Assembly (NCBI GenBank): GCA_038214755.1
Contig: JBBQRQ010000001.1
Span: 32,001-96,000, forward strand
DNA: 64,000 nt
Reading direction: 5' to 3'
DNA from: Verrucomicrobiota bacterium
GTDB lineage: Bacteria; Verrucomicrobiota; Verrucomicrobiia; Limisphaerales; CANJXF01
The notes beneath the pieces are model-generated. The model made no database searches. It had not been told where the DNA came from and worked only from the letters and a program-made list of their open reading frames with translations. This document shows, piece by piece, positions 9,198 to 28,622 of this stretch. The translations under genes were made by a program, and so were the position numbers. The stretch's first letter is position 1, and each line of letters opens with the position of its first letter.

Positions 9198-10625
9198 ATG
9201 CAAAAAACCATTTTTCTTTTTCTGACCCTTGTGTCGGCGCTTGGTTCATCTGCCGCCACCAAACCTAACATCGTTTTTATCCTTGCCGATGATCTCGGCT
9301 ACACGGATGTCGCTTGTTACGGCAGTAAATATTACGAGACACCAAACATTGATCGGCTCGCGCAGCAGGGGATGCGGTTCACCGATGGACATACTTGCGG
9401 ACCAAATTGTCAGCCGTCCCGCGCCGCGTTGATGAGCGGTCAATACATGCCGCGCACCGGGGTTTATACTGTGGGCGGCATCGACCGATTCAATTGGCAA
9501 AGTTGTCCTTTGCGGCCAGTGGATAATGTCACGCAACTTCCGCTGGAAAAAATCACGGTCGCGCAATCTTTGAAAAAAGCCGGTTACGCCACCGCCATGT
9601 TCGGCAAATGGCATTTGGGAAATGACGCAGCGCATCATCCTTCCCAGCGGGGATTTGATGAGGCCATTGAAAGTTCCGGCGTCCATTTTAATTTCAACAC
9701 GAATCCAAAAACCGATTATCCAAAGGGAGAATATCTCGCCGATTTTCTGACGGACAAAGCGGTTGATTTTATTCGCCGCCACAAGGACGGACCCTTCTTT
9801 CTTTACCTGCCGCACTTCGCCGTTCACCAACCGCTTCAAGCCAAAAAAGAATTGATCGAAAAGTTCGAGAAAAAAACTCCAGTCGGCGGACACAAAAATC
9901 CGACTTGCGCCGCGATGATCCAAAGCATCGATGAAAGCGTTGGCCGCGTTCTCGCCGCGCTCGATGAATTGAAGCTTGCTGAAAACACGCTCGTGATTTT
10001 TTCCAGCGACAACGGCGGGGTCGGCGGATATGAGCGCGAAGGAATTAAAAAAGAAGGCGACGTGACGGACAACGCGCCGTTGCGCGGCGGAAAAGGAATG
10101 TTGTACGAGGGCGGACATCGCGTGCCCTATATTTTTCGCTGGCCGGGCAAAATTGCCAAAGGGACAACCTGCGCCGAGACAATAACCGGGGTTGATTTGT
10201 ATCCCACCTTGCTCGAAGTCGCCGGAGCAAAACCTCCCGCAAATTATCCGCTTGATGGAGTGAGCTATCTCAAACTGCTGACGAGTGATGGGAAAGCGAA
10301 ACTAGATCGCGACGCCATTTATTGGCATTTCCCCGGCTATCTCGGCGCAGGCGCGGACCAATGGCGCACGAAACCAGTTGGCGTGATTCGATCCGGTGAT
10401 TGGAAGTTGATGGAATTTTTCGAGGACAATCATCTTGAGCTTTACAATTTGCGCGATGACCTCAGCGAAAAAAACGATCTCGCGTCGAAGAATCCTGAGA
10501 AAACAAAAGAGCTTCAAGCCAAACTCGCCGCCTGGCGCAAAGAGTTGAATGCCCAAATGCCGACACCCAACAAACCGACCAACGTTGTTTCCAAAAAGAA
10601 GAAGAAAAAAGGCGGCGAGGATTAA
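9198..10625 (+). CDS. Exported Cys-type sulfatase
   Basis: PNIVFILADDLG, CQPSRAALMSG, GKWHLG, SDNGG, KGMLYEGG. Confidence 0.95.
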   Translation: MQKTIFLFLTLVSALGSSAATKPNIVFILADDLGYTDVACYGSKYYETPNIDRLAQQGMRFTDGHTCGPNCQPSRAALMSGQYMPRTGVYTVGGIDRFNWQSCPLRPVDNVTQLPLEKITVAQSLKKAGYATAMFGKWHLGNDAAHHPSQRGFDEAIESSGVHFNFNTNPKTDYPKGEYLADFLTDKAVDFIRRHKDGPFFLYLPHFAVHQPLQAKKELIEKFEKKTPVGGHKNPTCAAMIQSIDESVGRVLAALDELKLAENTLVIFSSDNGGVGGYEREGIKKEGDVTDNAPLRGGKGMLYEGGHRVPYIFRWPGKIAKGTTCAETITGVDLYPTLLEVAGAKPPANYPLDGVSYLKLLTSDGKAKLDRDAIYWHFPGYLGAGADQWRTKPVGVIRSGDWKLMEFFEDNHLELYNLRDDLSEKNDLASKNPEKTKELQAKLAAWRKELNAQMPTPNKPTNVVSKKKKKKGGED

Positions 10626-10673
10626 ACGAATCCACGCTCACCGACCCTTGCCAAGGATTCTCCGCGTACTCTA

Positions 10674-11495
10674 TTACTTCGTCGCTGCGAATTTCCCTCT
10701 CTGCGCCGTTCCAAGTGGGCTAAGGAATTGCCTCGCACCAGCGGCGATGAAGTCGAGAACCTTGGGAGCCTGAAAGAAGAGGAAACCTTGCTTCTGAAAT
10801 CGTTTTAGATCCTCCGGCGTACGAGCGGGCCGTCCCATCACCTTACCAAATTTCTTTCCGGCACCTGCAATTTTGGAAATGGCTTCTTCCAACCGTGGGT
10901 GATTTTGTTTGCCGCGAAGCCCGAGCGAGAACGAAAGGTCGCTCGTGCCGATGAAGAGCACATCAATGCCAGGAGTGGCGGCAATCTCTTCGATATGAGA
11001 GAGCGCCGTCGCATCCTCGACGACCGCGACCACCAGAACGTTTTCATCCGCAAAATCGTAATAGCCTTCCGGTGCCGGCCAGCGGAACGCAGCGAGGTCA
11101 GCACCCGATCCTCGCAAACCTGCAGGCGGATAGCGGCACGCGGCAGCGGCTTGCCGCGCCAGGTCCGGTGTGCTGGTGAAAGGAAAGATCACGCCGAGCG
11201 CCCCGGTGTCGAGGACGCGTCTGGCGGACCAAAGTTCATTTACGGGCGGACGAACGAACGGCACCGCCGGCAATCCGCGCGTGGCCAGAACGATGTTGCG
11301 CACTGTCTCCAGGCTGATGGGCGAATGTTCCATCTCAAGCCAGAGGAAATCGAAACCAAGCGCGGCGGCATGGGCGGCGACCTCAACATTGTTGACGTTG
11401 ATCGTGATGCCGATGACGGGCTGGCCACTCTTGAGTTTTGCCTTAACCGGATTTTTCCATTTCGAATTGGCCGGCGTTCTTTTTCTCGATCGCAT
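10674..11495 (-). CDS. HpcH/HpaI aldolase family protein
   Basis: GFDFLWLEMEH, LDTGALG, RYPPAGLRG, GIDVLFIG..DLS; start set at MRSRK. Confidence 0.88.
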   Translation of the reverse strand: MRSRKRTPANSKWKNPVKAKLKSGQPVIGITINVNNVEVAAHAAALGFDFLWLEMEHSPISLETVRNIVLATRGLPAVPFVRPPVNELWSARRVLDTGALGVIFPFTSTPDLARQAAAACRYPPAGLRGSGADLAAFRWPAPEGYYDFADENVLVVAVVEDATALSHIEEIAATPGIDVLFIGTSDLSFSLGLRGKQNHPRLEEAISKIAGAGKKFGKVMGRPARTPEDLKRFQKQGFLFFQAPKVLDFIAAGARQFLSPLGTAQRGKFAATK

Positions 11496-11564
11496 AAACG
11501 TGGTTCGCTCTGCGTCACTGTGTGGGAGGGGGAAACTCTTTGACCAGCCAAACTTCCGAAATCT

Positions 11565-11846
11565 CGCAGGCGCGGACCAATGGCGCACGAAACCAGTTGG
11601 CGTGATTCGATCCGGTGATTGGAAGTTGATGGAATTTTTCGAGGACACAAATCATCTTGAACACTACAATTTGCGAGCTGACCTCAGCGAAAAAAATGAT
11701 CTCGCGTCGAAGAATCCTGAGAAGGCAAAAGCGCTTCAAACCAAACTCGCCGCCTGGCGCAAAGACTTGAACGTCCCGATGCCGACGCGCAACAAACCAA
11801 CGAACGTCGCTTCCAAAAAGAAGAAAAAAAAGGCGGCGAGGATTGA
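11565..11846 (+). pseudogene. Diverged second copy of the sulfatase 3' end (matches 10346-10625)
   Basis: First ~82 bp identical, then diverged; ends GGCGGCGAGGATTGA versus GGCGGCGAGGATTAA. Confidence 0.92.
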
Positions 11847-11911
11847 GGCCGTTGCCACGCCGCCTAACGAATCCAAACTTACCGACTGCGGAGTAGTTTG
11901 CTCGTCCGATT

Positions 11912-12088
11912 TTAGGACTTGGTTGATTTGGTGACAACCTTGTGGCCGGATTTCCATTGGCGCGCGCGCGCATCACGAACCATCGCAGCCAAATCGTAAT
12001 TGTAACGCTTCATCAATTCGGTTTTCACGCGGCGAACTTCGGCCATAACCGAATCGATCTCCTTGGGGTGATTGGTCTTGGGTGTCAT
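11912..12088 (-). CDS. Small protein of the type found beside PIN toxins (D.VMAEVRRVK.EL...YNYD)
   Basis: 58 aa ORF; motif recognition; partner toxin absent. Confidence 0.55.
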   Translation of the reverse strand: MTPKTNHPKEIDSVMAEVRRVKTELMKRYNYDLAAMVRDARARQWKSGHKVVTKSTKS

Positions 12089-12136
12089 TGTCGTCACTCT
12101 GGCGCAGATCATCAGTGTTGTGCAAGCGCGAGGGGC

Positions 12137-12255
12137 TCCGCGGCAATCATGGTATTTGGATGACGCATGAACTCGCGCAAATCCGTTTCGCTCATGCCGT
12201 GAAACACCGCCGATGCGCCGCCATTTTTCTCGATCTCCAAAATCATTTCAATCTG
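12137..12255 (-). pseudogene. 119-bp copy of an internal segment of the D-aminoacylase gene (matches 13320-13438)
   Basis: 6 mismatches, all synonymous in the parent reading frame. Confidence 0.92.
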
Positions 12256-12614
12256 ATCCGCACGCGATGAACTTCGATCAGGAAGAGTTTGCCGTGGTAG
12301 AATTCCTGAGCCGGATGGCTATCGAGAAAGGCGACCAGTCGTTCCATCAGTTGCGGAATAATCTCCGGGTGATTGTGCAATTGAACGGCCAGGATACCGA
12401 GGAAGTTCGCCGGCGGATAGGCCACGATGTCGGCGAAATCGCCATTGAGGGAAAGGAGAATCGCGCCCAGTTCGTGCGCCTGGGCGATGACCACCGGGTC
12501 AAGCGAGCGGACGGGAAGAACTTCGCGCAGTAAGGTGACCTGATGTCCGTGTCGGCGAAGCGTGTCGCTGATTTCGGCCGGCACGCATTGGTCGCTGAAG
12601 AACCGCAGGCTCAT
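12243..12614 (-). CDS. DUF5615 PIN-like toxin
   Basis: RFFSDQCVP...LRRHGHQV...D..V...A......LLSLNGDFAD; ATGA overlap with DUF433 gene. Confidence 0.85.
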   Translation of the reverse strand: MSLRFFSDQCVPAEISDTLRRHGHQVTLLREVLPVRSLDPVVIAQAHELGAILLSLNGDFADIVAYPPANFLGILAVQLHNHPEIIPQLMERLVAFLDSHPAQEFYHGKLFLIEVHRVRIRLK

Positions 12615-12832
12615 GCCGGTACGGCTTCAAACTCCGCCAACTCGCGCGCGTAATCCAGACAGGCCGCCACGTCGGTCGCAATGAGGTCGGGGAATTCCTG
12701 CTGGATGGCTGCGGCATCGCGTCCTGCGGCCAAATATCCCAGAATGAGCGCCACGGGAATTCTGGTGCCTTTAATGCACGGTTTGCCACGGAGGATTTGC
12801 GGATTGCTGACGATGTGTTCACGCCAATTCAT
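12611..12832 (-). CDS. DUF433 antitoxin
   Basis: IVSNPQILRGKPCIKGTRIPV...I..EFPDL...DV.ACL.YA. Confidence 0.9.
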   Translation of the reverse strand: MNWREHIVSNPQILRGKPCIKGTRIPVALILGYLAAGRDAAAIQQEFPDLIATDVAACLDYARELAEFEAVPA

Positions 12833-12949
12833 ACGACGGATTATGTCATGGTATCGAGTGAAGGCGAGTTCTTTGCGCCGATCAAACCAGACGCGCAGTT
12901 CATCCTTGCGCAACTGTTCCGCGCATCATGGCAAAAATATTTCGGTTTA

Positions 12950-14521
12950 TCAGTTGAGCTTTGAAGTATGTCGCAAAGCCATGCCCGGTCGCGCGCCAGT
13001 ATGCTCGTCGTTTTCGACAACCCTGACGCCATTTACAAAAACATATTTAAATCCAGTTGAGTAATGATGCGGATCTTTGTAGTTCGCATTGTCGATGATC
13101 GTCGCGGGATCAAACACCACGATATCCGCCCAATTTCCTTCGCGTAATTCGCCGCGATTTTTAATTTGAAAAGTTGTCGCCGGAAGCGAAGTCATTTTCC
13201 GAATGGCATCTTCGAGCCGCAAAACTTTTTCCTCTCGCACGTATTTGCCGAGCACACGCGCGTTGTTGCCATAGCCGCGAGGGTGGGGGACGCCTTCGTT
13301 CAATTTTCTCACGCCGCTGTCCGCTGCAATCATCGTATTGGGATGACGCATGAACTCGCGCAAATCCGTTTCGCTCATGCCGTGAAACACCGCCGACGCG
13401 CCGCCGTTTTTCTCAATCTCCAAAATCATTTCAATCTGGTCGTCGAGCGAATCGCTGTGGCGGGTTTTTTGCGCGGCTTCGACGATGTTCAATCCATTCA
13501 ACGATTTGTCATGCTTGTAGGAAGCGATCACGGCGTAGGCGTAACTTTCGCTGCCGCGACGCTGCAATCCGTCCTTCATCTGAGCGATAATTTTTTTCTT
13601 TTGTTCCGCATCATCGAGCCGTTCGATCAACTTTTTGTTTCCGCCATCTTTCGCGCTGTCCGGCACGAGTTGGCTGATGCCGGTGCTCGAAGCGGTGTAG
13701 GCATATTGGTCCTGAGTAATGTCGAGTCCTTCGCTGCGCGCTTTTTCGATGGCGGCAATGACCTGATCGGTCTTTCCCCAATTTGATTTTCCAGAAAGTT
13801 TGATGTGCGAAATTTCCGCGCGAATGTGCGCTTCGCGAGCGATGCGAAAAATTTCGTCGAGCGATTTCAAAATCTCTTCGCCCTCGCTGCGTTGATGCGT
13901 TGCATAAATTCCATCGTAAGCCGAAGCCACTTTCGCCAGCTCGATGATCTCTTCGGTCTTGGCGAAAACTCCCGGCAGATAAATCAAGCCCGTCGAAAGT
14001 CCGACCGCGCCATCCTTCATCGCTTGCTCGACGAGTGAACGCATCATGTTCAATTCTGCCTCGGTGGGCGGGCGCATGAATGAGCCGCCCATCGCTTTTC
14101 CGCGAACCGTTCCGTGCCCGATCAGCGTCGCGACATTCGGAGACATTTTGATTCGCTCAAGCTTTTTAAAAAATTCTCCAACTTTTGCAACTGAGCCGCC
14201 GCAATTGCCGAGCACCAAAGTCGTGACACCCATGCGCACGAAATTTTCGCCGAGCGGCTGCTCGCTGATTTCCTCGGCGTGGGTGTGGACGTCGATGAAT
14301 CCCGGGGCGACCACCATTCCGCTGACATCGATTTCCTTTTTTGCGCGTTGATGGATTTTTCCGATGGCAACGATGCGCCCTTTTTTCACGGCGACGTCGC
14401 CGAGGTAAGACGGATTTCCCGTGCCGGCCGCGATGCGGCCGTTGCGCAAAATCAAATCGTAATTTTTTGCATCGAGAGAAAAGACCGCGCTAAACAACGC
14501 CAAAGTCATCCAAATTTTCAT
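12950..14521 (-). CDS. N-acyl-D-amino-acid deacylase (amidohydrolase 3 family)
   Basis: PGFIDVHTH, GNCGGS, GLSTGLIY.PG, SHIK, HPRGYG; signal peptide. Confidence 0.9.
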   Translation of the reverse strand: MKIWMTLALFSAVFSLDAKNYDLILRNGRIAAGTGNPSYLGDVAVKKGRIVAIGKIHQRAKKEIDVSGMVVAPGFIDVHTHAEEISEQPLGENFVRMGVTTLVLGNCGGSVAKVGEFFKKLERIKMSPNVATLIGHGTVRGKAMGGSFMRPPTEAELNMMRSLVEQAMKDGAVGLSTGLIYLPGVFAKTEEIIELAKVASAYDGIYATHQRSEGEEILKSLDEIFRIAREAHIRAEISHIKLSGKSNWGKTDQVIAAIEKARSEGLDITQDQYAYTASSTGISQLVPDSAKDGGNKKLIERLDDAEQKKKIIAQMKDGLQRRGSESYAYAVIASYKHDKSLNGLNIVEAAQKTRHSDSLDDQIEMILEIEKNGGASAVFHGMSETDLREFMRHPNTMIAADSGVRKLNEGVPHPRGYGNNARVLGKYVREEKVLRLEDAIRKMTSLPATTFQIKNRGELREGNWADIVVFDPATIIDNANYKDPHHYSTGFKYVFVNGVRVVENDEHTGARPGMALRHTSKLN

Positions 14522-14585
14522 CGGTGCATTTTCCGAAATTGAAGAGCGGAAAGCGATAAGGTTTTTAGCTTGCCTGATTGGCAAA

Positions 14586-14684
14586 AACAAAATCAATCCA
14601 GACGAATTGAACCAATGCGTCGTCGCGCTGGCCGTGATGTGTTACGCGATTGCTGATGGAAAAGAAGATTTGCTTCGCCGATAA
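14586..14684 (+). pseudogene. Orphan C-terminal remnant resembling an M28 peptidase (KINPDELNQCVVALAVMCYAIAD...stop)
   Basis: Read by hand; no upstream gene body. Confidence 0.5.
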
Positions 14685-14695
14685 TCGACGCATTG

Positions 14696-15288
14696 TTACA
14701 ATACGTCGTGCCGTAGAACCTTCTCCCGCCACTTTCGCACACTACTCATGTCCATCCGTTCGCCCTTGAATTCGATCTGCTTCACCGGCTTCGTCCCGTT
14801 CTGGCTTTCGCGTTTGAGCACGCTGCTGATTTCCATCCAGCGCACGTCGGCGAACTCCACCTTCTCCTTCCCGACGGCCCGCTCGTCCTCCTCGGAGAAG
14901 GTGCCGATCACGAGCATCACCGGATGGGGCTGATTCATCCACGTCTTCACCCAGCGCTGTTTCCGGATCGTGAAAATCTCCGCCCCGTCCGCCTTCCTCT
15001 TCGTGAGATGCGAATTGCCGGCCTTGAGTTGCAGGCAGAGTCCCTTGCCGGTTCCATTACCGTCCTCATTGGTGAATTCGAGCAGGATGTCGATCCCGTC
15101 GTCCTCATCCCCGGGAACCTCGATCCATTTCTGATTCGCGCTCGTGATGCGCGCGCCGACATCGAGCACGAGCAGCTTCCCTTTTCTCCGCGTGGTCAGT
15201 TTCGCGAGATCGTCCGCCTGAAGTTCCTCCACCTGCCGGCGCCCCGCCTCGCTGGCAAACTTCCTCTCCAGCGCATCCCAGAGCGGGA
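14696..15288 (-). pseudogene. C-terminal remnant with DUF4365 / PD-(D/E)xK nuclease-like domain
   Basis: DDGIDILLEF...LCLQLKAG motif; 5' end runs into the transposase-flanking repeat, no native start. Confidence 0.7.
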
Positions 15289-15289
15289 G

Positions 15290-15969
15290 GGCCAAAGGCC
15301 CGTCCACAAGCCAGCCCAGGGCAAGCGAGGAACGAGCGCCGCCCTGGGTTCTTCCGGACAAAAATGAAAACAAGCCCCAACGGGGCGCGACTAGACCCGC
15401 TCAATCCCACACGTATCGTTCATCGATCTCGACGCCATGTTTCCGGCAAAGCGCCCGAAACTCATCCTGAAATGACACCTCGCGATGATGCTCCTCCTGC
15501 GTCGCGACATAGGCCCGGACCTGCTCGACGTTGGATTGGCTGACGGAAAACGCGCCGTATCCACCCTGCCAGTGGAAATCTCGGTAAGCGGGTGCCTGTT
15601 CCTTCATCCATTTCGACGGACCTGTCTTCGCCTTTTCCACCAAATCCGCGATGGTGACGGTTCGGGAAAGATTGCACAGGATGTGAACGTGATCTTCCAC
15701 GCCGCCGATGAGGATGGGTTCGCACCCGATGTTTTGCAGGACGCCCGCCATGTAGCCGTGCAGCCGGGCGCGAAGTTCCGGGTCTTTGAGAAAAGGAACA
15801 CGATTCTTCGTGCTGAAGACGACATGCAGGACGACGCGGGCTAATGATTGCGGCATAATGGAGCGAAATTGTTACGCCCCGTTGGGGCTTTGCCCATTCT
15901 ATATTTCCAGACCCAGGGCGGCGCTCGTTCCTCGCTTGCCCTGGGCTGGCTTGTAGCAGGCCGTTGGCC
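15290..15969. mobile_element. Y1 transposase element bounded by ~100-bp composite inverted palindromic repeats
   Basis: 15290-15390 and 15871-15969 are reverse complements (CCAGCCCAGGGCAAGCGAGGAACGAGCGCCGCCCTGGGT; AAGCCCCAACGGGGCG). Confidence 0.85.
15401..15856 (-). CDS. tnpA: IS200/IS605-family (RAYT-like) HUH Y1 transposase
   Basis: HVVFSTKNR, DHVHIL (HUH), WQGGYGAFSVS, YVATQEEHH catalytic Tyr; no tnpB. Confidence 0.92.
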   Translation of the reverse strand: MPQSLARVVLHVVFSTKNRVPFLKDPELRARLHGYMAGVLQNIGCEPILIGGVEDHVHILCNLSRTVTIADLVEKAKTGPSKWMKEQAPAYRDFHWQGGYGAFSVSQSNVEQVRAYVATQEEHHREVSFQDEFRALCRKHGVEIDERYVWD

Positions 15970-15992
15970 TTGGGCTTCGCGTCGCTTCAGTC

Positions 15993-16019
15993 GCCGCCGA
16001 AATACCACAGCCAGATTTC
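15993..16019 (-). pseudogene. Tiny remnant of Roc GTPase G3 motif (EIWLWYFGG versus EIWLWDFGGQ)
   Basis: Read by hand; collinear between the TIR and DUF4365 remnants. Confidence 0.55.
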
Positions 16020-16035
16020 TGGATCGAGGCCGAGA

Positions 16036-17247
16036 TCATCGTTTTCTAGCGCCACGCTCTATACGCCAGACGAAATAGGCCGGGGAGCGGCGAGTTTCGC
16101 GCTTCGTTTCATGGGAGTCCCATAGTGCTTTGATTGCCGCGGCTATCGGTGCACTACAACCTGCAATAACCGAAGGGAGCGCAAGCCCATGGACGGCTGC
16201 GATAGTTAGAGCCGTGCTGGCAACATACGCGCCGCTTCTGGCAATCGAGTTCATCCGAGCAAGCCGGTTACAAGTATGGCGGACTTTTTCTAGCTCATCC
16301 TCTAACAAATCACGCTTGAGCTGCTTGGCCGCTTCTGTAGTGTCTTTAGCATTAGAGGCATCCTCAATCGCCCGGTCGAGCTTCCGTCTGAACGCTGTTA
16401 GTGATTCAGCTTCATCCTCAAGAACCTTAGCAAGAAGTGGAAGCGGTATGTTTTCGAGGAATGGAATTTCGAGTCGAAGCAGAGGATCTTCGTCCGGCGG
16501 TTTCAATGTTTCGCTGAGATCAGATAAATGCGTCGCACCCAACACATCGGCTTTCAGCACATCCTCGCCGACTGATGCCGCATTTATCCCGGGAGAAATG
16601 AAAGGAGTAAACGCTACTTGTCCCGAAACCATGAGTGGCTGGCAATCCTCAAGGAACTGATTCTCCTGCGGGATCGCAACGTGCAAAAATCCACCTGCCA
16701 AATGACAGTGCTCGCCGTGGGCATTGATGGAAGGGTCTGCCAAACGAGAAGACATGGTGCGGTTCCATCGCGACGTGCCCTTGCCTGACCAGTCTGCCGC
16801 TAATAAAGCCGTCTCGGACGACACGTCTGCAGAGGCGATCATCTTCGCAACCATTGCTACTAGCCAATCGCGGGCTGGCGCGAATCCGAGACGGCTACCA
16901 GTTTTTGGGTCAATGCTGGCAGATGCGCCAAGGACTGGACTCGCTAGTTCATCAGAGATTGGAAAAACGGAGTAACCAGAGGGCTTGACCCATTCATCTA
17001 CGCTAAAGCAGACGAGGTCCGCTGCGATTAGACCTCGGCGAATCGCTCCTGCTGCTTCAACTGGCGAGCCGACAATGCGAATGGCTTTCCTACCAGGGAA
17101 CTCGCGGATCGACTCGATGTAGTCTTCGACTGAGTGTTTGATGTGGAAATCGACTAACTCTGTCTTTGCCTTGGGGAACGTGGCTACCAAGTCGAAGAGG
17201 GCTTGATTCAAGGCAGCCAATCTCTTTCTGTTATGTTCAATCCGCAT
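16036..17247 (-). CDS. Hypothetical protein with hydrophobic C-terminal hairpin; atypical codon usage
   Basis: 403 aa ORF overlapping the TIR ORF end. Confidence 0.7.
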   Translation of the reverse strand: MRIEHNRKRLAALNQALFDLVATFPKAKTELVDFHIKHSVEDYIESIREFPGRKAIRIVGSPVEAAGAIRRGLIAADLVCFSVDEWVKPSGYSVFPISDELASPVLGASASIDPKTGSRLGFAPARDWLVAMVAKMIASADVSSETALLAADWSGKGTSRWNRTMSSRLADPSINAHGEHCHLAGGFLHVAIPQENQFLEDCQPLMVSGQVAFTPFISPGINAASVGEDVLKADVLGATHLSDLSETLKPPDEDPLLRLEIPFLENIPLPLLAKVLEDEAESLTAFRRKLDRAIEDASNAKDTTEAAKQLKRDLLEDELEKVRHTCNRLARMNSIARSGAYVASTALTIAAVHGLALPSVIAGCSAPIAAAIKALWDSHETKRETRRSPAYFVWRIERGARKR

Positions 17248-17614
17248 GTTGCGCCAGGGAGCCTTTGATGGGGGCGTCGTCGAGCCGCAGGGGAAGGAAG
17301 CGGCGCTCCTTGTTCAGCGGGTCGCGAAACCGGAACGTGCCGGACTCCAACTGCGCCCAGTCCGAGCCGAACGCATGGGCCGACATGCAGAGCACCAGCA
17401 CGCGCGAGTGCTCCAGCCCTTCCTCGATCTTCGCCGCCCTCACCCCTGACCCCTCTCCCATCCGATGGGCGAGGGGAACCTCAGGCTTGAGCCCCCATTC
17501 ATCGAACCACACCTTCACCCCGTCCTTCCGCAACCGTTCCGCCAGCGGGCGCACCACCGCCTTGTCCTTTGCGCTGTGGCTCAGGAAGACGTCGTGTTGG
17601 AAATCATTCGACAT
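17237..17614 (-). CDS. TIR (TIR_2-like) domain, probably the truncated N-terminus of a larger gene
   Basis: DVFLSHSAKDK..VRPLAERL..DGVKVWFDEW, SDWAQLE with conserved Glu. Confidence 0.85.
   Translation of the reverse strand: MSNDFQHDVFLSHSAKDKAVVRPLAERLRKDGVKVWFDEWGLKPEVPLAHRMGEGSGVRAAKIEEGLEHSRVLVLCMSAHAFGSDWAQLESGTFRFRDPLNKERRFLPLRLDDAPIKGSLAQHAD
17437..17476. repeat. Family I hairpin (CCCTCACCCC...CCCTCTCCC...GGGCGAGGGG) in frame inside the TIR ORF
   Basis: Encodes PLAHRMGEGSGVR; related to repeats at 34333-34493 and 62168-62735. Confidence 0.75.
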
Positions 17615-17749
17615 GCGTTATCTCGGCGATGTAAGGCGAAACGCTTGGGTTCTTCAAGTTACATATTCTACCAACGGCAAGAAATAGAGGTTTAAAGCTA
17701 ATCGAGTTGACGCGACTTCGGGAAAAGTTTGAAACTTCGTTTTATCACT

Positions 17750-20428: not shown

Positions 20429-20799
20429 TTGGGAATGCTTTTCAGCACATCCCTTTCCTTCAATCCTTTAGTTTGAAAATGAAGCGTCTTTTTCATTCCT
20501 GCGCGGAAGGTGTTCAACTATTTTGCAGACGAAAAACCCTCTCCATTCACCGACGAATAAATATGAAAACTTTTTCTCAAAAAAATCTGGCACGCTACGT
20601 GTTCGTGTTGAGTTTTACGACGAGTGCGCCTATTTCTTACGCGTCGCTCAACCAACTCATCACGCAGATTTCGTGGATAAAATTGGAGCCGGGGAATGCG
20701 CGGGTTTCGCAGGCGAATGCTGGGCAAAAATAAAAGGCGTGTTTTTCAAAATCAATTTCATGGAAGGAAGTCCGCACAGGGTTGGGGTGAGCGTTGGGA

Positions 20800-20899
20800 A
20801 AAGCGGTAGAGGACTACCGCACTCCAAGACGCTCGCGCGTTGGATAATCGACTTGGAATGGCGCGAAGCGTCTTGGTGTGCGCCAGTCCTCTGGCGCTT
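20800..20899. repeat. Family L doublet (AAGCGGTAGAGGACTACCGCACTCCAAGACGCT...AGCGTCTTGGTGTGCGCCAGTCCTCTGGCGCTT)
   Basis: Imperfect inverted arms with internal hairpins. Confidence 0.75.
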
Positions 20900-20947
20900 G
20901 AGCGGATATTGAAACCCTAACTCGGAAATAAATCTTGGAATAATTTT

Positions 20948-21259
20948 ATGAAAGCGGTTTTGGAAAACTCATCTCTTCGCACCCGCCGGAGGCAGATGCT
21001 ACCCGATTTACCACGTCGCGAATTTTTGAAAACGTCTGCGTTGGCAGCCGGCGGAATTTTTGTCGCCGAAAATGTCGAGTGGGCGATTGAGAATCGCGCC
21101 GTTTATGATTTTCTTTCGCACCCTGCCGTGCTTTGCGCCAAAGACCCGGAGTTCAAAGCAATTGATTTGATTTGCGACCTTGTGAAAAACGCCGGCGACC
21201 GTGCTGAGTTGGTGGATTTGGAAACCATCGCTGGGCAAATGAAATCAACCAAAGCTTAG
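20948..21259 (+). pseudogene. Internally deleted gene: Tat signal (RREFLK) fused to a deacetylase-like C-terminus; family B arm at 20976-21004
   Basis: Signal peptide joined directly to VEWAIENRAVYDFLSHP... Confidence 0.55.
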
Positions 21260-21295
21260 AGATGTTCAGTTAACCTCAGAGCAATCAAATCACTC

Positions 21296-24200
21296 GTGGT
21301 GATTCTTCGAAATTTAATTCTCCTGTGTTTCGTCGCCATGAGTGGCGTTGCAGAGCAACTCGATTTGTCCAAACTTCCGCCGCCTTCGCCTCGGCAAATT
21401 GATTTTGTTCGGGACATTCAACCGATTCTTTCCGAGCGGTGTTATTCGTGCCACGGCGAGTTGAAACAGGAGAGCGAATTGCGCTGGGACACGAAATCCT
21501 CCGCGTTCAAAGGCGGCGCTTCCGGCAAAGTTATCATTCCCGGAAAAAGCAGCGAAAGCCGAATGATTCATCTCGTCGCTGGCTTGGAAAAAAATCTCGT
21601 CATGCCTAAAAAAGGCGAACGATTGACGGCGGAACAAATTGGTTTGCTACGGGCGTGGATTGATCAGGGCGCAAATTGGCCGGAGCAAGTCGCGCTACCG
21701 ACAACCAAAGACAAATCCGATTGGTGGAGTTTCAAACCAGCATCGCGTCCTGACTTGCCCCGGGGCGCGGCTGTGTCGGGCTCGACCAGCCGCAGCGCAT
21801 CGAAGAAAGAAGACGCAACAGATTTATCCCAGCGACCTTTCAATGCGAAGCCGCTGCGGCTGGGCAAAGACGACACAGCCGCGCTCCAAAAAAATTGGGC
21901 GCGAAATGAAATCGATCTTTTTATTTTGGCGAAGTTGCAGGAACAAAAATTAGGGCCGTCGCCGGAAGCGGATCGGCGCACGTTGATTCGCCGCTTGAGT
22001 TTTGATCTCACCGGTTTGCCGCCGTCGCCCGAAGAAGTGGAAAAATTTGTCAGCGACAAAAGTCCCAAGGCTTACGAAAAACTCGTGGATCGTTTGCTGG
22101 CGTCGCCGCGCTACGGCGAACGTTGGGCGCGACATTGGCTCGACGTGGTTCATTTCGGCGAGACGCACGGCTATGATAAAGACAAGCCGCGTCTCAATGC
22201 CTGGCCGTATCGCGATTACGTCATTCGTTCACTGAACAGCGACAAGCCGTATTCAAAATTTGTCGAGGAACAACTTGCCGGCGACGTGCTTCATCCTGAC
22301 AGCCCGGACGGAATCGTGGCGCTCGGTTTTATTGCCGCTGGTCCGTGGGACTTTGTCGGGCATGTCGAGTTGCCGATTGAAAAAACCGACGGACTGATCG
22401 CGCGCTACAACGATCGCGACGATATGGTGATGACGACGATTTCAACTTTTCAAAGTCTAACGGTCCACTGTGCGCGTTGTCACAATCACAAATTCGATCC
22501 GATCACGCAGAAAGATTATTACAGTTTGCAATCGGTCTTTGCCGGAGTGGATCGCGCAGATAGAAATTTTGATTCAGACAAATCGGTTCAAGTTAAGCGC
22601 CGGGATTTTAGTCAGGAGAAAAAACTTTTGGAGAATCAACTCGCTGTTTTGACGAACCAGATCGCCAGGGTTTCGAGTCCCGCACTTGAGAAACTCAATT
22701 CGCAATTGGCGAACTTGAAATCGCAATCGGGTGTCTCGGACACAGCCGAGAAAAGTCCGAGCAACGGTTATCACAGCGGAATTGCGAAAACCCCCCACGT
22801 CACGAAATGGGTTCAGGTGGATTTGGGCGCAGAAAAGCAAATCGATCAAATTCGTCTCGTGCCGGCGAGGCCGGTGGATTTTCCGAATACGCCGGGCTTT
22901 GGTTTCCCACTGCGCTTCCGTGTCGAAATGTCCGACGAATCAGAGTTCAAGAAAGGAGAGATTCTCGCGGACTTTAGCGGCTTCGATTTTAAAAATCCGG
23001 GCGACGATGCCTTCACGATTCTGGTGAACAAACAAGCGACGCGCTTTGTTCGCGTGACCGCGACAAAATTATGGAAACGCACCGATGATTATGTTTTTGC
23101 GCTGGCGGAACTACAGGTTTTTTCAAACGGCACAAACGTCACCGAACACGCTGAAGTTTCAGCGCTCGATTCGATTGAAGGCGGTTTGTGGTCCAAAAAA
23201 TTTCTGGTGGATGGTTTCAGCAGCCGAACCAAGCTGAAGCCTGTTGTTTCTGTCACTGAGCAAAAAAGCCACGACGATTTAGAAAACCAAATTCAAGCAG
23301 TCCAGGAACAGCGTTCCAAATTGGTGGACTCGTTGGTTCCTCCTTTGATCAAAAAAGATTTTCAGAGCGTCACGAATCGTCTCGGCGAGTTGGCTCGCGA
23401 GATCAGCGGTTTGCCGCCTCAGCAAAAAGTGTTTGCCGCCACGAGCGATTTTCCGCCGAACGGAAATTTCATTCCTGCAAAAGTCCCACGGCCAGTGCAT
23501 CTGCTCGCGCGCGGCGATGTGACACAACCTCGTGATTTGATGCGTGCTGCCGGAGTCGCTTCCGTTGCTGGACCCAATCCTGAATTTGAAATCTCAGATA
23601 CGAATAACGAAGGCGCTCGCCGCGCCGCTCTGGCCAAATGGATAACTGATCCGAAAAACATGCTGACGCGTCGGTCGATTGTGAATCGCGTTTGGCAATA
23701 TCATTTCGAGCGCGGCATCGTCGAGACGGCGAATGATTTCGGTCACATGGGCGCGTTGCCGACGCATCCCGAATTACTCGACTGGCTCGCATTTTGGTTT
23801 TTGGAAAATGGCGAGTCGTTGAAAACACTTCATCGCCTCATCGTCACCAGTGCGACGTATCGTCAAAGTTCATCAATCAATCCTGATCTCGCGAAGTTGG
23901 ACGCCGACAATCGTTTTCTTTGGCGGATGAATTGCGAACGACTCGATGCCGAATCGATTCGCGATTCAATGTTGCTGATTAGTGGGAAACTGGATCTGGC
24001 AATGGGCGGGCCATCTATTCAGCAATTCGGTTTCAAAGACGATCATTCGCCGGTCTATGATTACACGCAGTTCGACGGAAACAGCGCCGCTGCGTGCCGC
24101 CGGAGTATTTACAGTTTCACGGTGCGGAGCGCGCCTGATCCGTTGATGGAATCGCTGGATTGCCCGGACGCTTCCATTCTCGCGCCGAAACGAAATGTCA

Positions 24201-24451
24201 CCATGACTTCGTTGCAGGCGCTGGCCGTTTTGAATAATCCGTTCGTGTTGAAGCAATGCGCGAATCTGGCGAGCCGCGTTTCAAAATCTGGCGATTTAAA
24301 AATTCAGGTTGCCCAAGCTTTTCAACTCTCCTTGAATCGTGCGCCGACCGCCGACGAAATGAAAAAACTGATTCCGTTCGCGGAAAAAAACGGCATGGAA
24401 AATTTTTGTCGCCTCCTTTTCAACCTGTCTGAATTCATGTTTGTTGATTGA
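21296..24451 (+). CDS. Planctomycete cytochrome c / DUF1549 / DUF1553 protein with discoidin-like insert
   Basis: CYSCH and CARCH heme motifs, YGERWARHWLD, PTHPELLDWLA. Confidence 0.92.
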   Translation: MVILRNLILLCFVAMSGVAEQLDLSKLPPPSPRQIDFVRDIQPILSERCYSCHGELKQESELRWDTKSSAFKGGASGKVIIPGKSSESRMIHLVAGLEKNLVMPKKGERLTAEQIGLLRAWIDQGANWPEQVALPTTKDKSDWWSFKPASRPDLPRGAAVSGSTSRSASKKEDATDLSQRPFNAKPLRLGKDDTAALQKNWARNEIDLFILAKLQEQKLGPSPEADRRTLIRRLSFDLTGLPPSPEEVEKFVSDKSPKAYEKLVDRLLASPRYGERWARHWLDVVHFGETHGYDKDKPRLNAWPYRDYVIRSLNSDKPYSKFVEEQLAGDVLHPDSPDGIVALGFIAAGPWDFVGHVELPIEKTDGLIARYNDRDDMVMTTISTFQSLTVHCARCHNHKFDPITQKDYYSLQSVFAGVDRADRNFDSDKSVQVKRRDFSQEKKLLENQLAVLTNQIARVSSPALEKLNSQLANLKSQSGVSDTAEKSPSNGYHSGIAKTPHVTKWVQVDLGAEKQIDQIRLVPARPVDFPNTPGFGFPLRFRVEMSDESEFKKGEILADFSGFDFKNPGDDAFTILVNKQATRFVRVTATKLWKRTDDYVFALAELQVFSNGTNVTEHAEVSALDSIEGGLWSKKFLVDGFSSRTKLKPVVSVTEQKSHDDLENQIQAVQEQRSKLVDSLVPPLIKKDFQSVTNRLGELAREISGLPPQQKVFAATSDFPPNGNFIPAKVPRPVHLLARGDVTQPRDLMRAAGVASVAGPNPEFEISDTNNEGARRAALAKWITDPKNMLTRRSIVNRVWQYHFERGIVETANDFGHMGALPTHPELLDWLAFWFLENGESLKTLHRLIVTSATYRQSSSINPDLAKLDADNRFLWRMNCERLDAESIRDSMLLISGKLDLAMGGPSIQQFGFKDDHSPVYDYTQFDGNSAAACRRSIYSFTVRSAPDPLMESLDCPDASILAPKRNVTMTSLQALAVLNNPFVLKQCANLASRVSKSGDLKIQVAQAFQLSLNRAPTADEMKKLIPFAEKNGMENFCRLLFNLSEFMFVD
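21762..21887. repeat. Family F doublet in frame inside the DUF1549 gene
   Basis: GCGCGGCTGTGTCG...CAGCCGCAG / CTGCGGCTG...CGACACAGCCGCGC; intergenic sibling at 41084-41206. Confidence 0.88.
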
Positions 24452-25947
24452 TGAAAACCAATGCCCACATTTGTTCCTCGCAACAACAGCCCGTTCAACT
24501 CGGCGCGGGAGATTCCCGGCTCATTGACCGGCGCGAATTTCTCTGGCGCTTCGGCGGCGGACTCGGCGGGATTGCAATGGTTCATTTGCTCGGCGAAAAC
24601 GGATTGCTCGCCGAAGTGGCAAAACCGAAACAGGAATTCAATGGCGGCTTGCATTTTCCAGCGAAAGCCAAACGCGTCGTGCAACTTTTCATGTCGGGCG
24701 CGGCCAGCCAATGCGACACGTTTGATTACAAACCAGAACTTATCAAACGCGCTGGGCAAAAATTTGATCCGGGCGGAAAAGTGGAATTGTTTCAAAGCGA
24801 TCCGGGCGCGGTAATGAAAAGTCCGTGGGACTGGAAACAATACGGTCAATGCGGCAAATGGATTTCCGATTTGGTGCCGCACATCGGCTCGTGCGCCGAC
24901 GACATCACGTTCATTCATTCGATGATCTCGAAGTCAAACGTGCACGGCCCGGCCACGTTCATGCAAAACACCGGTTTTGTTTTTCCCGGATTTCCAAGTA
25001 TGGGCGGCTGGATCTCTTATGGGCTGGGAAGTCTCACGGAAAATTTGCCAACGTTCGTGGTGCTGCCCGATCCGCGGGGCCTTGCGCCAAACGGGCAGTC
25101 AAACTGGTCGGCTGGTTTTCTTCCCGCCGCGCATCAAGGCACGATGATTCGCATGGGGAAACCAAATCCAATTTATGATTTGTTTCCTCCAAAATCGGCG
25201 AACTTCATCACGCCCGAAAGCGAACGCGAAACACAAACGTTGCTCAAAGAATTAAATGAAATACATCTCGCCACGCGCGCGGGAGATTCGCGGCTCGATG
25301 CCCGAATCGCGTCGTACGAACTGGCCGCGAAGTTGCAACTGAGCGCGCCGGAAGTTTTGGATGTTTCAAGTGAGAGCGATGCGACAAAAAAACTTTATGG
25401 CCTCGACGAAAAAATCACGGAAGATTTTGGGCAACGTTGTCTGGTTGCGCGCCGGTTGCTGGAGCGCGGCGTTCGTTTTGTGCAGGTGTGGAGCGGGGCG
25501 GACAACGGATTTCCCCGACGCAACTGGGACAGTCACGAAGACCTTGCCAAAGATCATCTCGACATGGCGCGCAGCATGGACAAACCGGCGGCCGCGCTGC
25601 TCAAAGATTTGAAAGCGCGCGGAATGCTAGACGACACGATTGTTATTTGGACAACGGAGTTTGGCCGAATGCCGTGCAGTCAAGGGAGCAAAGGTCGCGA
25701 CCACAATCCATTTGCGTTCACGAGTTGGGTTGCGGGCGGCGGATTCAAAGGTGGAACTTCATTTGGCGAAAGCGATGAGTGGTCTTACAAGGCCGCGAAA
25801 GATCCGACTTATTGCTACGATCTACACGCGACGATTCTTCGGCAACTCGGCATCGACCATGAGAAATTGACCTTTCGTCACAACGGAATTGACCGGCGGT
25901 TGACCGATGTTCACGGGGAAGTGATTAAGGAAATTATTTCCGCCTGA
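24448..25947 (+). CDS. DUF1501 domain protein
   Basis: RREFL Tat motif, AKAKRVVQLFMSG, LLERGVRFVQV, TEFGR.P, GRDHN. Confidence 0.92.
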   Translation: MMKTNAHICSSQQQPVQLGAGDSRLIDRREFLWRFGGGLGGIAMVHLLGENGLLAEVAKPKQEFNGGLHFPAKAKRVVQLFMSGAASQCDTFDYKPELIKRAGQKFDPGGKVELFQSDPGAVMKSPWDWKQYGQCGKWISDLVPHIGSCADDITFIHSMISKSNVHGPATFMQNTGFVFPGFPSMGGWISYGLGSLTENLPTFVVLPDPRGLAPNGQSNWSAGFLPAAHQGTMIRMGKPNPIYDLFPPKSANFITPESERETQTLLKELNEIHLATRAGDSRLDARIASYELAAKLQLSAPEVLDVSSESDATKKLYGLDEKITEDFGQRCLVARRLLERGVRFVQVWSGADNGFPRRNWDSHEDLAKDHLDMARSMDKPAAALLKDLKARGMLDDTIVIWTTEFGRMPCSQGSKGRDHNPFAFTSWVAGGGFKGGTSFGESDEWSYKAAKDPTYCYDLHATILRQLGIDHEKLTFRHNGIDRRLTDVHGEVIKEIISA

Positions 25948-25980
25948 AGGTGAGGCGTGTTGAGCGTTCGGGAATTGAGT

Positions 25981-26178
25981 TCATTCATCGCGCGATGCCA
26001 ACTGCGCTGACCGACGAAGCAATGATTGTTTCCAACGATTCATTTCAATGTGGGAACGGAATTTTTGCGATGAAAAAGAAGGCAGCGTCGGCGATTCAGC
26101 AAGCGGCGCGACCATCTGATTTTCCGCCCAGATACGGAGCTTGGCTTTGTAATCGTCGGTATATTTTATGCGCTTCAT
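25981..26178 (-). CDS. Small hypothetical protein, possibly orphan partner of a TA-like pair
   Basis: 65 aa ORF (LP.FSSQKFRSH.EMN.WK); no intact partner follows. Confidence 0.45.
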   Translation of the reverse strand: MKRIKYTDDYKAKLRIWAENQMVAPLAESPTLPSFSSQKFRSHIEMNRWKQSLLRRSAQLASRDE

Positions 26179-26210
26179 TTAATTGAAAGTGGCCATTGCG
26201 GCAACGGAGA

Positions 26211-26350
26211 TTATTGCGAGAAGGCTGGTTTATTCTTAGGCCAGAGGTGGTTTTGTTCGTAGGCGTGCGCGATTTTCAAAATGGTTTCCTCGCCGAAAGG
26301 TTTGCCAAGGAGTTGGTGGCCGGTGGTAGTTCGGGATTTGTCGTGAAACC
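26211..26350 (-). pseudogene. Degenerate second copy of the gatA 3' end (matches ~27159-27293)
   Basis: Reads [33 protein letters not shown]...stop versus Gat[34 protein letters not shown]. Confidence 0.88.
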
Positions 26351-26365
26351 CCAGCGCAACTCAAC

Positions 26366-26599
26366 TCATTCGCGAACGGACAAAACTTTTTTGCGTCCCT
26401 CCGAGTGCAAGCGCAACGACAACCGACCGGCGCGCACCCATCGTTTTTCCGCGCCCGCCTCGCGCACCATTTCCAGCAGGTAATGGATAAGAGTGGAGGT
26501 GGCTGCTCCCTGTTTGTGGCGAAATCGCCGCCGTCCAATCGCCAGCGCCCCGAATGACTCTGCCTCAGCCGCCTCGGCCAAATTGATTTTAGGTTTCAT
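26366..26599 (-). CDS. Small basic protein coupled to the GNAT gene
   Basis: ATGA overlap with GNAT stop. Confidence 0.55.
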   Translation of the reverse strand: MKPKINLAEAAEAESFGALAIGRRRFRHKQGAATSTLIHYLLEMVREAGAEKRWVRAGRLSLRLHSEGRKKVLSVRE

Positions 26600-27162
26600 A
26601 AGGTGATCCAACTTTGAGCTTGAGCTAATTTAAAAAATTCTTCTGCCGAATCAACATCGAATGTGAATACGTCGTAATTCTCATCCGATTTCGCGGTCTG
26701 TTCGGTCATGCCGATTCCCCGATAAAACATCAGCGTCTTTGCATCCGCCAACGACTCCAGCCATATTCGTCCTGCCATTCCCAATTCTTTACTGCGTGCC
26801 ACGGCCACAGCGAGCAACGTCACGCCGACATATTTCAGACCGCCCGTTCGATTTCTTGGATTCGTCGCCAGATACTCTAGGACGAGGGCTTCCGAACGTC
26901 CAATTTTTCTCCCTTTCGCCTCTATCGCCATCAAGCCATGCAGTTCTTCTCCTACGACTGCTGCGTAACACTCAATCGACGACCGACTGCGTTGAGTGAT
27001 CGCAAAAATTCCAGCCCAATCCCACTCGCGGTCGAGAGCGTTCTCTTCGTAATCCCACTGCGATTGTGCGGCGATGTCGAGCCACGTTGCTCGATGAATT
27101 TCCCCATTGACCCTGGCGCTATTTGCTCTTTCGACAAAACGCGCGGCAACAGGAAATTTCAT
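26596..27162 (-). CDS. GNAT-family acetyltransferase (toxin-like)
   Basis: [10 protein letters not shown]...[23 protein letters not shown].....FY...GM; start overlaps gatA stop. Confidence 0.8.
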
Positions 27163-28622
27163 AATGCCGCTTTCTCTTCGTGCCAATTCGTGGATTGCTC
27201 GTAGGCATGAGCGATTTTTAAAATCGTTTCTTCGCCAAAAGGTTTTCCGAGGAGTTGCAAACCGATGGGCAGTTTTGGGTTTGTCGTGAAGCCGCAGGGA
27301 ATACTGATCCCCGGAATGCCGGCGAGATTGCAGGAGATCGTGAAAATATCGGACAGATACATTTGCAACGGGTCGTCGGATTTTTCGCCGATTTTGAAAG
27401 CAGGCGTCGGAGTCGTTGGCGTGACGATGGCGTCCACTTTTTCAAACGCTTTCAGGAAATCCTGGCGGATGAGCGTGCGGACTTTTTGGGCGCGCAAATA
27501 AAATGCGTCGTAATAACCGCTGCTCAAAACGTAAGTGCCGAGGATGATGCGGCGTTTGACTTCCGCGCCGAATCCTGCGCCACGAGTGCGGCTGTAAAGT
27601 TCGTCGGGGCTCGTGCCTTCGACCCGCGCGCCGTAGCGGATGCCATCGAAGCGCGCGAGGTTGGCGCTGGCCTCGGCGGTGGCGACGATATAATAAGTTG
27701 CGACGGCGTAATCAGTGTGCGGCAAAGAAATTTCCACGATTTCCGCGCCCAGATTTTCGAGTTGCTTGACGGCTGTGTGGACCGCAGCGCTCACTTCAGG
27801 ATTCATCCCGCCGATCATGTATTCCTTTGGCAAACCCAGCCGCAGTCCTTTGATCTCGCCATTCAACGCCGCTGAATAATTTGCAACTGGTTGAGGAACA
27901 CTCGTGGAATCCCGATGGTCAACTCCGCTCATTACCTCGAGCAATATCGCCGCATCGCGCACGTCTTTTGTCAGCGGACCAATTTGATCGAGCGACGATG
28001 CAAATGCGACGAGACCGTATCGCGAAATGCGTCCGTAAGTTGGCTTGAGTCCGATGCAGCCACAGAGCGCGGCGGGTTGGCGAATCGAGCCGCCGGTGTC
28101 GGTGCCGAGTGATGCGAGACATTCGTCCGCTGCGACGGCTGCCGCCGAACCGCCGGATGAACCGCCGGGAATTCGCGTCGTGTCCCACGGATTTTTCGTG
28201 ACGCCGAACGCGGAATTTTCCGTCGAACTGCCCATGGCAAATTCATCCATGTTCAATCGGCCAAAAATAATTGCTCCAGCGGATTTTAATTTTTCAATGG
28301 CCGTCGCGTCATACGGCGAAATGAATTGGCCGAGAATTCCTGAGCCGCAATTCAGCGGCTGATTTTTCACGGCGAGCACGTCTTTGACGGCGATAGGAAT
28401 TCCGAGCAGCGGTCTTTGTAATTGCGTTGCGCCGCTGAAAATTTCTTTATCTGCGGCGTCAGCCTGGGCGAGAGCATCCGTCGCATCGTAAGAAATAAAA
28501 GCGTGAACTTTCCCCTCCACGCGCTGGATTTGGTCGAGGCACGATTGCATCGCTTCGCGCGCGGAGACTTCGCGCTTGGATAATTTTTCTGCGAGTTCGG
28601 AAATAGTGAGTTGGTTGAGCAT
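27159..28622 (-). CDS. gatA: Asp/Glu-tRNA amidotransferase subunit A
   Basis: [60 protein letters not shown]. Confidence 0.97.

What the first reader, a model, noticed from the sequence alone, without database searches (positions are those of the whole stretch)
9198..27293. Recurrent 'gene + cargo + diverged copy of that gene's downstream part' architecture
Seen three times: sulfatase / aldolase / sulfatase 3' copy; D-aminoacylase / DUF433-DUF5615 TA / internal copy; gatA / GNAT pair / gatA 3' copy. Copies are direct repeats ~0.9-1.2 kb downstream and differ largely at synonymous sites. No integrase is present. Inference: incoming DNA from a relative recombines in a conserved gene, replaces its tail, brings the donor's neighbouring genes and strands part of the old allele. 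This would be an integrase-free capture route (homology-facilitated illegitimate recombination-like) that small TA modules exploit repeatedly.
Basis: partly seen in the sequence, partly recalled or inferred. Interest (0 to 1): 0.82.

Follow-up and report, generated by a model that had tools for sequence, protein, structure and literature searches.

The report
Stranded gene ends flank toxin-antitoxin inserts
In this sediment bacterium about 70 genes, many of them essential, sit beside a small insert (often a toxin-antitoxin pair) with a second, slightly different copy of the gene's end beyond it, which likely marks DNA from relatives being added by the cell's own recombination instead of by an integrase.

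Summary
All three repeats are real: 91%, 94% and 80% identical, direct, downstream. Unitigs of the probable source run carry the junctions. The pattern is genome-wide: 81 stranded copies at 74 genes. Polarity is strict: tail copies lie downstream (40 vs 2), head copies upstream (19 vs 1). No copy is identical, 63% of differences fall on third codon positions, and 291 of 417 stranded bases recur in congeners' intact genes. So the copies are displaced alleles, not decayed duplicates. Cargo is mostly toxin-antitoxin and defence genes; none of 142 scanned proteins is a recombinase. The window's DUF433-DUF5615 cassette is repeat-flanked in 15 of 29 other genomes, beside different host genes where identified (controls 3/52, 5/123). 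Most likely mechanism (0.6): a crossover with a relative's DNA inside the gene plus a microhomology join. Circle integration and true duplication followed by allele replacement are not excluded. The architecture is known as 'insertion with long target duplication' (restriction-modification systems) and Rhs/T6SS displacement. The scale, the housekeeping targets, the TA cargo and the allele evidence are the new part. This scan noted the same architecture before in other genomes.

The parts
9198..10625 (+). Sulfatase, intact host gene
   Evidence: Pfam PF00884; directly convergent with the aminoacylase gene, about 120-170 bp apart, in G001 and G003, and with no cargo gene between them in G005
10346..10623 (+). 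In-gene tail that is repeated; first 83 bp identical to the stranded copy, all differences lie beyond
   Evidence: run p=0.0025
10674..11495 (-). Cargo 1: HpcH/HpaI-family aldolase
   Evidence: its 73-77% relatives in G001, G005 and G006 lie on other contigs than the sulfatase
11565..11846 (+). Stranded sulfatase tail: 91%, a 3-nt insertion, a 1-nt deletion, own TGA; a 6-nt ATCTCG match at the junction; weak homology resumes about 20 bp after the stop
11912..12088 (-). Orphan 58-66 aa ORF between the two stranded copies; likely a relic of an earlier insertion (inferred)
   Evidence: no family and no match elsewhere in the genome or in fetched loci
12137..12258 (-). Stranded internal piece of the aminoacylase gene; overlaps the last 16 nt of the DUF5615 gene, including its stop
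   Evidence: 7 differences, all third position
12243..12614 (-). Cargo 2: DUF5615 (PIN-like) predicted toxin
   Evidence: homologs repeat-flanked in 15 of 29 testable genomes
12611..12832 (-). Cargo 2: DUF433 predicted antitoxin
12950..14521 (-). D-aminoacylase-like amidohydrolase, intact host gene (repeated part 13320-13441)
26200..26354 (-). Stranded gatA tail (core 26253-26354, 80%, frameshifted)
26366..26599 (-). Cargo 3: 77-aa ORF, no family
26596..27162 (-). Cargo 3: 188-aa ORF, GNAT-like only as a lead
   Evidence: no match in the 8 congeners
27159..28622 (-). gatA, intact host gene (repeated part 27145-27297)
   Evidence: no such repeat in the 19 relatives' gatA loci, which reach 1.5 kb each side

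Best explanation
Each structure is likely the scar of a one-sided integration: DNA from a related species crosses over inside a conserved gene, brings its own version of the gene end plus whatever lay next to it, and rejoins the chromosome at a short chance match inside the old gene end, which is left stranded. Shown: the architecture, its polarity, that the two copies are different functional alleles, empty sites in congeners, no recombinase in the cargo, cargo shared between species at higher identity than the host gene, and stacks of several stranded ends. Inferred: a RecA crossover, natural transformation as the entry route, and a microhomology (possibly Ku-assisted or template-switch) join. 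A join downstream of the crossover strands only the old allele. A join upstream of it also truly duplicates a stretch, which would explain the identical 83-89 bp beside the junction at sulfatase and ilvD. A join beyond the stop leaves no trace, which would explain unflanked TA pairs. TA and defence genes are likely over-represented because events that add without deleting keep the host gene and any resident addictive module intact.
For: Polarity 40:2 and 19:1; only 4 inverted cases. Third-position share 760 of 1206; third position largest in 65 of 73 copies; none of 73 identical. One 566-bp copy differs 9/0/41 with no gap, so it was stranded recently yet differs at species level (91% to its gene; both copies 83-91% to congeners). 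291 of 417 stranded bases occur in congeners' intact genes. ilvD: sites favour the in-gene copy 25:9 near the junction and the stranded copy 15:4 near the stop against G003, whose head is 93% alike (p=4e-4, breakpoint chosen afterwards). Three genomes share a 95% cargo gene at ilvD with three different junctions, two of them at 4-8 nt matches read by eye; G007's stranded piece is 64/67 to its own gene and 51/61 to G000's stranded piece. At the C8 aldolase-family gene the cargo is 94-95% shared with G005 and G007, the gene is 88-91%, the site is empty in G003 and G004, and G005 has two stacked tails. Non-synonymous change is even along the copies (91/95/108 by thirds), as from one event. No junction motif seen by eye. 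recA, comEC, dprA and comM are in G000; Ku is in 8 of 9 genus genomes vs 1 of 14 controls.
Against: No conspecific genome exists here, so head-versus-tail ancestry was informative at 1 of 15 copies tested; the others show no clear switch. At ilvD the switch lies inside the repeat and the junction-side part of the stranded copy differs mostly synonymously (15 vs 3 private changes over the copy), which fits a circle as well or better. 43 of 75 junctions lie within 60 bp of the last cargo ORF (no null computed), tighter than random cuts suggest. HFIR is reported at 1e-2 to 1e-3 of homologous transformation (PMC6382021, passage) and, from recall, usually deletes recipient DNA. The model needs the cargo to be beside the host gene in the donor already, so it does not by itself explain the first arrival of one cassette at many different genes. 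comEC and dprA also score in E. coli and 9 other controls, so they do not prove competence.
Confidence: 0.6

Rival explanations
1. Circle integration. A circle of gene end plus cargo (made by end-joining of an incoming fragment, or popped out between an existing pair of repeats) integrates by one homologous crossover, so both copies become reciprocal mosaics and the unit can spread on its own.
For: Reciprocal pattern at ilvD. G005 and G007 share one junction at the C8 gene but differ downstream of the stranded copy. Ku is present. Tight cassette ends. Furuta 2010 proposes such a cycle for RM systems, without evidence for release.
Against: Repeated cycling should leave older, more decayed sequence at the junction end; none found (non-synonymous 91/95/108, indels 10/8/6 for tails). 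Junctions differ among three ilvD carriers, though erosion could do that.
Confidence: 0.2
2. True target duplication. The cargo inserts during break repair and copies the resident gene end exactly; the in-gene copy is later replaced by ordinary allele exchange while the stranded copy decays.
For: Identical runs next to the junction in 5 of 39 copies at p<0.05. RM cases in Furuta 2010 Table 2 are 44/46 to 49/49. Two repeats around DUF5615 homologs are 99% alike (L264, L295). Identical repeats of 141 bp or more would break this assembly and be missed. It explains first arrival at new genes.
Against: None of 73 copies is identical although most are under 141 bp. Copies with no second-position change and no gap (15 of 73) still carry 105 third-position differences. 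Stranded-private changes are 62 synonymous vs 55 not, above the roughly one quarter expected from neutral decay (own knowledge). It would need a replacement by a species-level allele at nearly every locus before any decay.
Confidence: 0.15
3. A recombinase acting in trans (integron-like, tyrosine or HUH/RAYT) moves defined cassettes into gene ends.
For: Five tyrosine recombinases in the genome, one about 11 kb from the C73 stack. An IS200/RAYT-like gene lies in the window. 14 of 74 cargos hold high-copy repeats.
Against: 74 unrelated targets, repeat lengths 48-612 bp, no junction consensus by eye, heads and tails alike; 60 of 74 cargos lack high-copy repeats.
Confidence: 0.04
4. Assembly chimera of co-occurring strains.
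For: Metagenome-assembled genome; the only reads are the probable source run, held as contigs.
Against: Unitigs carry the junctions at even depth with no differences. Stranded copies bear frameshifts and stops. The same sites and cargo recur in independently assembled congeners.
Confidence: 0.01

Closest known systems
Insertion with long target duplication of restriction-modification genes (Nobusato 2000, not read; Furuta, Abe, Kobayashi 2010, PMC2853133: passages and sections 15 and 18 read; supplements not read)
   Same: Selfish or defence cargo without a recombinase; direct repeats over 30 bp of variable length; repeats often span a start or stop so the target gene stays intact; empty site in relatives; mostly naturally competent hosts.
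   Different: There: RM cargo, a few cases per species, near-identical repeats in the table seen, read as true duplication linked to DNA breaks. Here: about 74 loci in one genome, TA and other cargo, repeats 74-99% alike and synonymously diverged, stacks of several ends.
Homology-facilitated illegitimate recombination and its proposed role in Rhs and T6SS effector displacement (PMC5361080, passages; PMC6382021, passages; de Vries 2002 and Prudhomme 2002 not held, known from those passages and recall)
   Same: One homologous anchor, one non-homologous join; newest module next to the intact gene, older parts pushed downstream; copies in one genome come from different lineages. Two Rhs genes here show the same layout.
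   Different: Described in nature for toxin loci; here it acts on housekeeping genes (purB, gyrB, pheT, serS, thrS, glyA, ftsK, mutS, gatA) at either end. The chemistry is untested in this phylum.
Integrative elements that restore a target gene's 3' end (tRNA and tmRNA islands, e14 and phage 21 in icd; recalled) and fungal mitochondrial mobile ORFs (name taken from earlier findings, not read)
   Same: Replacement gene end brought in, old end displaced beyond the insert.
   Different: Those carry an integrase or homing endonuclease and use a fixed site; here no such enzyme is in 142 scanned proteins, targets are arbitrary and inserts are small (median 778 bp).
Current model of chromosomal TA acquisition (Belot et al. 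2026, PMC13617665; abstract and passages)
   Same: TA pairs in many small, high-turnover spots; frequent loss.
   Different: That model has mobile elements deliver the TA and then erode; here the insert ends and flanking repeats point to a route with no element.

Membership tests
Insertion with long target duplication | Direct repeats over 30 bp, variable in length, unique to the locus | tested here: met
   48-612 bp, low-copy
Insertion with long target duplication | Empty site with one copy in a related genome | tested here: met
Insertion with long target duplication | Insert under 20 kb with no integrase or transposase | tested here: met
   28-7912 bp; no such Pfam hit in 142 proteins; cargo genes of 3 loci were not scanned and my gene caller can miss short ORFs
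Insertion with long target duplication | Cargo contains restriction and modification genes | tested here: not met
   TA, Wadjet, TIR, ATPases, enzymes; no RM family hit
Insertion with long target duplication | Both repeats are copies of the same target | tested here: not met
   Two functional alleles overall; identical only in part at a few loci
HFIR | Homologous anchor on one side with donor sequence in the product | tested here: inconclusive
   Foreign tract at the ilvD end; 14 other copies uninformative
HFIR | Illegitimate join at a 3-10 nt microhomology | tested here: inconclusive
   4-8 nt matches at three junctions read by eye; no chance level computed; donors unknown for the rest
HFIR | RecA dependence during natural transformation | not testable with these tools
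   Genes present; organism known only from a metagenome
Integrase-driven islands | Recombinase gene in or beside the insert | tested here: not met
Integrase-driven islands | Fixed attachment site | tested here: not met
   74 unrelated host genes, no consensus by eye; no formal motif search
Integron cassettes | attC palindromes bounding each cassette | not tested
   No attC model was run; boundaries are gene fragments

The most novel reading that the evidence does not exclude
Toxin-antitoxin and defence modules in Verrucomicrobiota spread mainly by a host-encoded, element-free route. One-sided recombination at the ends of conserved genes adds them without deleting anything, addiction favours additive over replacing events, and essential genes accumulate push-down stacks of cargo and old gene ends, like integron arrays with no integrase. 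The stranded ends form a readable record of interspecies gene flow.
Probability: 0.35. Interest if true: 0.8.

Novelty: new variant of a known kind. Interest (0 to 1): 0.62.

Why it matters
How toxin-antitoxin pairs come to lie alone between core genes is unsettled; a 2026 study still invokes mobile elements that later erode (PMC13617665). The mechanism of 'long target duplication' has been open since 2000 (PMC2853133). This genome gives about 70 scorable events, and one cassette that is repeat-flanked in half of the testable genomes holding it. The allele evidence argues that the repeats are mostly not duplications. It yields a simple scan (gene-end copy with polarity and third-position bias) that any genome can be put through, and a direct transformation test.

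Tried and rejected
Decay gradient along stranded copies, predicted if the copy is reused as a second homology arm: not found. Head-versus-tail ancestry for the three window events: congeners are only 76-85% alike, uninformative. A metagenome scan for near relatives found none above 84% protein identity. An apparent stranded gatA head in G004 lies at a contig end and was dropped. A 27-nt scan for short copies added only 4 tail and 2 head candidates. Repeat elements as the driver: in 14 of 74 cargos only. Two other runs of the sample held next to none of the words. Contig-end overlaps were listed but not resolved into hidden young events. Rows dropped before the 73-copy counts: 8 copies at 7 genes (C35, C154, C41:12670, C57, C7 as likely paralogs, cargo genes or miscalls; C3 and C18 as Rhs). 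In one search, L274 (overlap artefact) and L270 (second cassette copy) were discounted; redid the count with fixed rules. Literature searches that found no paper describing this for TA cargo or in Verrucomicrobiota, judged from listings; the library lacks most subscription papers, and PMC122324 and PMC122325 were not held.
Full report
Observation. Codon-position counts are 2/7/12, 0/0/7 and 3/2/15. Unitigs of the probable source run carry all three cargo junctions without differences at depth 19-26, and one spans the whole gatA event; this is not independent data. In G001, G003 and G005 the sulfatase and aminoacylase genes face each other directly, and none of 19 relatives' gatA loci has the repeat. 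The window lies in a 5.1-Mb assembled genome, 97% complete. I take it for Verrucomicrobiota from gene content and from the named genomes holding its cassette; no call names it.

Genome-wide pattern. I called genes with a self-trained model and kept low-copy direct matches of 45 bp or more within 10 kb where one copy lies in a gene and the other is a fragment. Tail copies lie downstream 40 times and upstream twice; head copies lie upstream 19 times and downstream once; internal pieces lie downstream 22 times and upstream 8; inverted cases number 4. The 81 copies of the expected polarity belong to 74 genes. Of 64 host-gene fragments scanned, many are housekeeping by Pfam domain, which I read as purB, pyruvate carboxylase, accC, gyrB, pheT, glyA, ilvD, nadA, serS, thrS, gltX, ftsK, mutS and nuoE. 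Median cargo is 778 bp and its GC equals the genome's. About 25 of 74 cargos hold a TA-type Pfam family by my hand count (the TA reading of DUF4258, DUF2283, DUF4926, DUF6883 and DUF4160 is recalled). Others hold Wadjet, TIR, ATPases, ORF6N, an efflux pump, an aldolase or only a repeat element. None of 142 proteins hit an integrase or transposase family. The genome has at least 123 TA-like loci; 33 of 113 testable are repeat-flanked, 13 of 89 after removing the seed loci by hand, against 3 of 137 control genes (p=7e-4). So most TA loci are not flanked.

Two alleles, not a decayed duplicate. In 73 copies the differences fall 262/184/760 on codon positions 1/2/3, identity runs 74-99%, and none is identical. 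For 15 copies with congeners, 291 of 417 stranded bases occur in some congener's intact gene; stranded-only changes are 62 synonymous and 55 not, in-gene-only 74 and 37. The gatA row of that call used unpublished G009 as one of eight outgroups; no conclusion depends on it. The stranded pieces were thus working alleles that have since decayed a little. A limit: contigs overlap by 141 bp, so identical repeats of that length would be hidden.

Relatives. At a DeoC/LacD-family gene on C8, G005 and G007 carry the same downstream cargo gene at 94-95% while the host gene is 88-91% alike; G003 and G004 are empty; G005 has a second stranded tail further on. At ilvD, G000 has two stranded tails, and G004 and G007 share the distal cargo gene at 95% with different junctions. 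G000's ilvD is 91-96% like G003 until the last 200 bp, where it drops to 80-85% and the stranded copy becomes the better match. That was the only informative case of 15. The load varies: with a cruder scan, 8 events in 373 kb of G005, 2 in 138 kb of G007, 1 in 385 kb of G001, 0 in 164 kb of G003, 1 of expected and 1 of opposite polarity in 340 kb of four order-level genomes, and 84 against 27 of opposite polarity in all of G000 (contigs were chosen from earlier hits, not at random).

One cassette, many hosts. The window's DUF5615 gene has relatives in 36 GTDB loci, mostly Verrucomicrobiota. Of 29 testable, 15 are flanked by a direct repeat within 1.3 kb, against 3 of 52 shifted windows and 5 of 123 windows from other loci. 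Six of ten neighbouring frames scanned had a family, all different: a sugar hydrolase, a TIR protein, Lnt, a sulfatase, a sigma factor and a TIM-barrel enzyme. Codon bias could not be read reliably there.

Mechanism. One-sided integration fits most facts. A crossover inside the gene gives the new end and the cargo; a non-homologous join back into the old end strands it. It predicts the polarity, both heads and tails, homology ending near the stop or promoter, any cargo, and stacks. Identical runs beside the junction in some copies (sulfatase 83 bp, ilvD 89 bp; 5 of 39 at p<0.05) fit joins upstream of the crossover, or later conversion. recA, comEC, dprA, comM and Ku are present, which allows but does not show the route. 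Against it stand the tight cassette ends (43 of 75 within 60 bp), the reciprocal ilvD pattern and the unexplained first arrival at new genes; these keep circles (0.2) and true duplication (0.15) alive. The internal aminoacylase copy likely lost its 3' part to a later event from the sulfatase side; this is inference from the orphan ORF between the two copies.

Known and new. Furuta 2010 describes the same layout for RM systems, including repeats across start or stop codons and mostly competent hosts, with mechanism open; a 2013 review repeats this for RM systems only in the passages seen. HFIR was proposed for Rhs and T6SS arrays. By the membership tests this works like both but is not an RM insertion, and its repeats are not plain duplicates. 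My searches found no account for TA cargo at housekeeping genes. Earlier notes of this scan report the same layout in other genomes; I did not test them, and my reading was set before seeing them.

Verdict. Real, genome-wide, a new variant of a known kind. Interest 0.62; the boldest reading has probability 0.35 and interest 0.8.

Noticed in passing
window 15290-15969: IS200-like (weakly RAYT-like) 151-aa gene between 100-bp inverted repeats at 15290-15387 and 15875-15969.
   Followed up: no
window 14696-17614: DUF4365, a 403-aa unknown and a TIR_2 gene upstream of the aminoacylase; a likely defence islet. In G001, G003, G004 and G007 the Ku gene lies about 0.4-0.7 kb from the aminoacylase there; in G000 Ku is on C15.
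   Followed up: no
window 28627-29386: Nucleotidyltransferase-HEPN pair between gatC and gatA with no flanking repeat; congeners have gatC directly before gatA.
   Followed up: partly
L167 (G000:C52:21856-30583): A complete Wadjet set (JetA, DUF4194, SMC-like, JetD) is the 7.9-kb cargo behind a 55-bp stranded piece.
   Followed up: no
L134, L146: Two Rhs genes with 1-kb stranded internal copies, the classic C-terminal displacement layout.
   Followed up: no
G000 C85, C98, C107: The cargo is only a 130-180 bp high-copy repeat element, yet the gene end is still stranded.
   Followed up: partly
L172 (G000:C73:6685-12420): Three stacked head copies (539, 154, 205 bp) upstream of one M3 peptidase gene, with cargo between them.
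   Followed up: partly
window 62168-62641: 221-bp direct repeat, 95% alike and non-coding, built from hairpin repeats.
   Followed up: no
G000:C8:21292-21804 (in L137): A second DprA-like gene inside the variable stretch after the C8 stranded tail.
   Followed up: no
L359 (G007:C276): G007 has an unrelated 2-kb insert between sulfatase and aminoacylase with no match in G000 and no clear stranded copy.
   Followed up: partly
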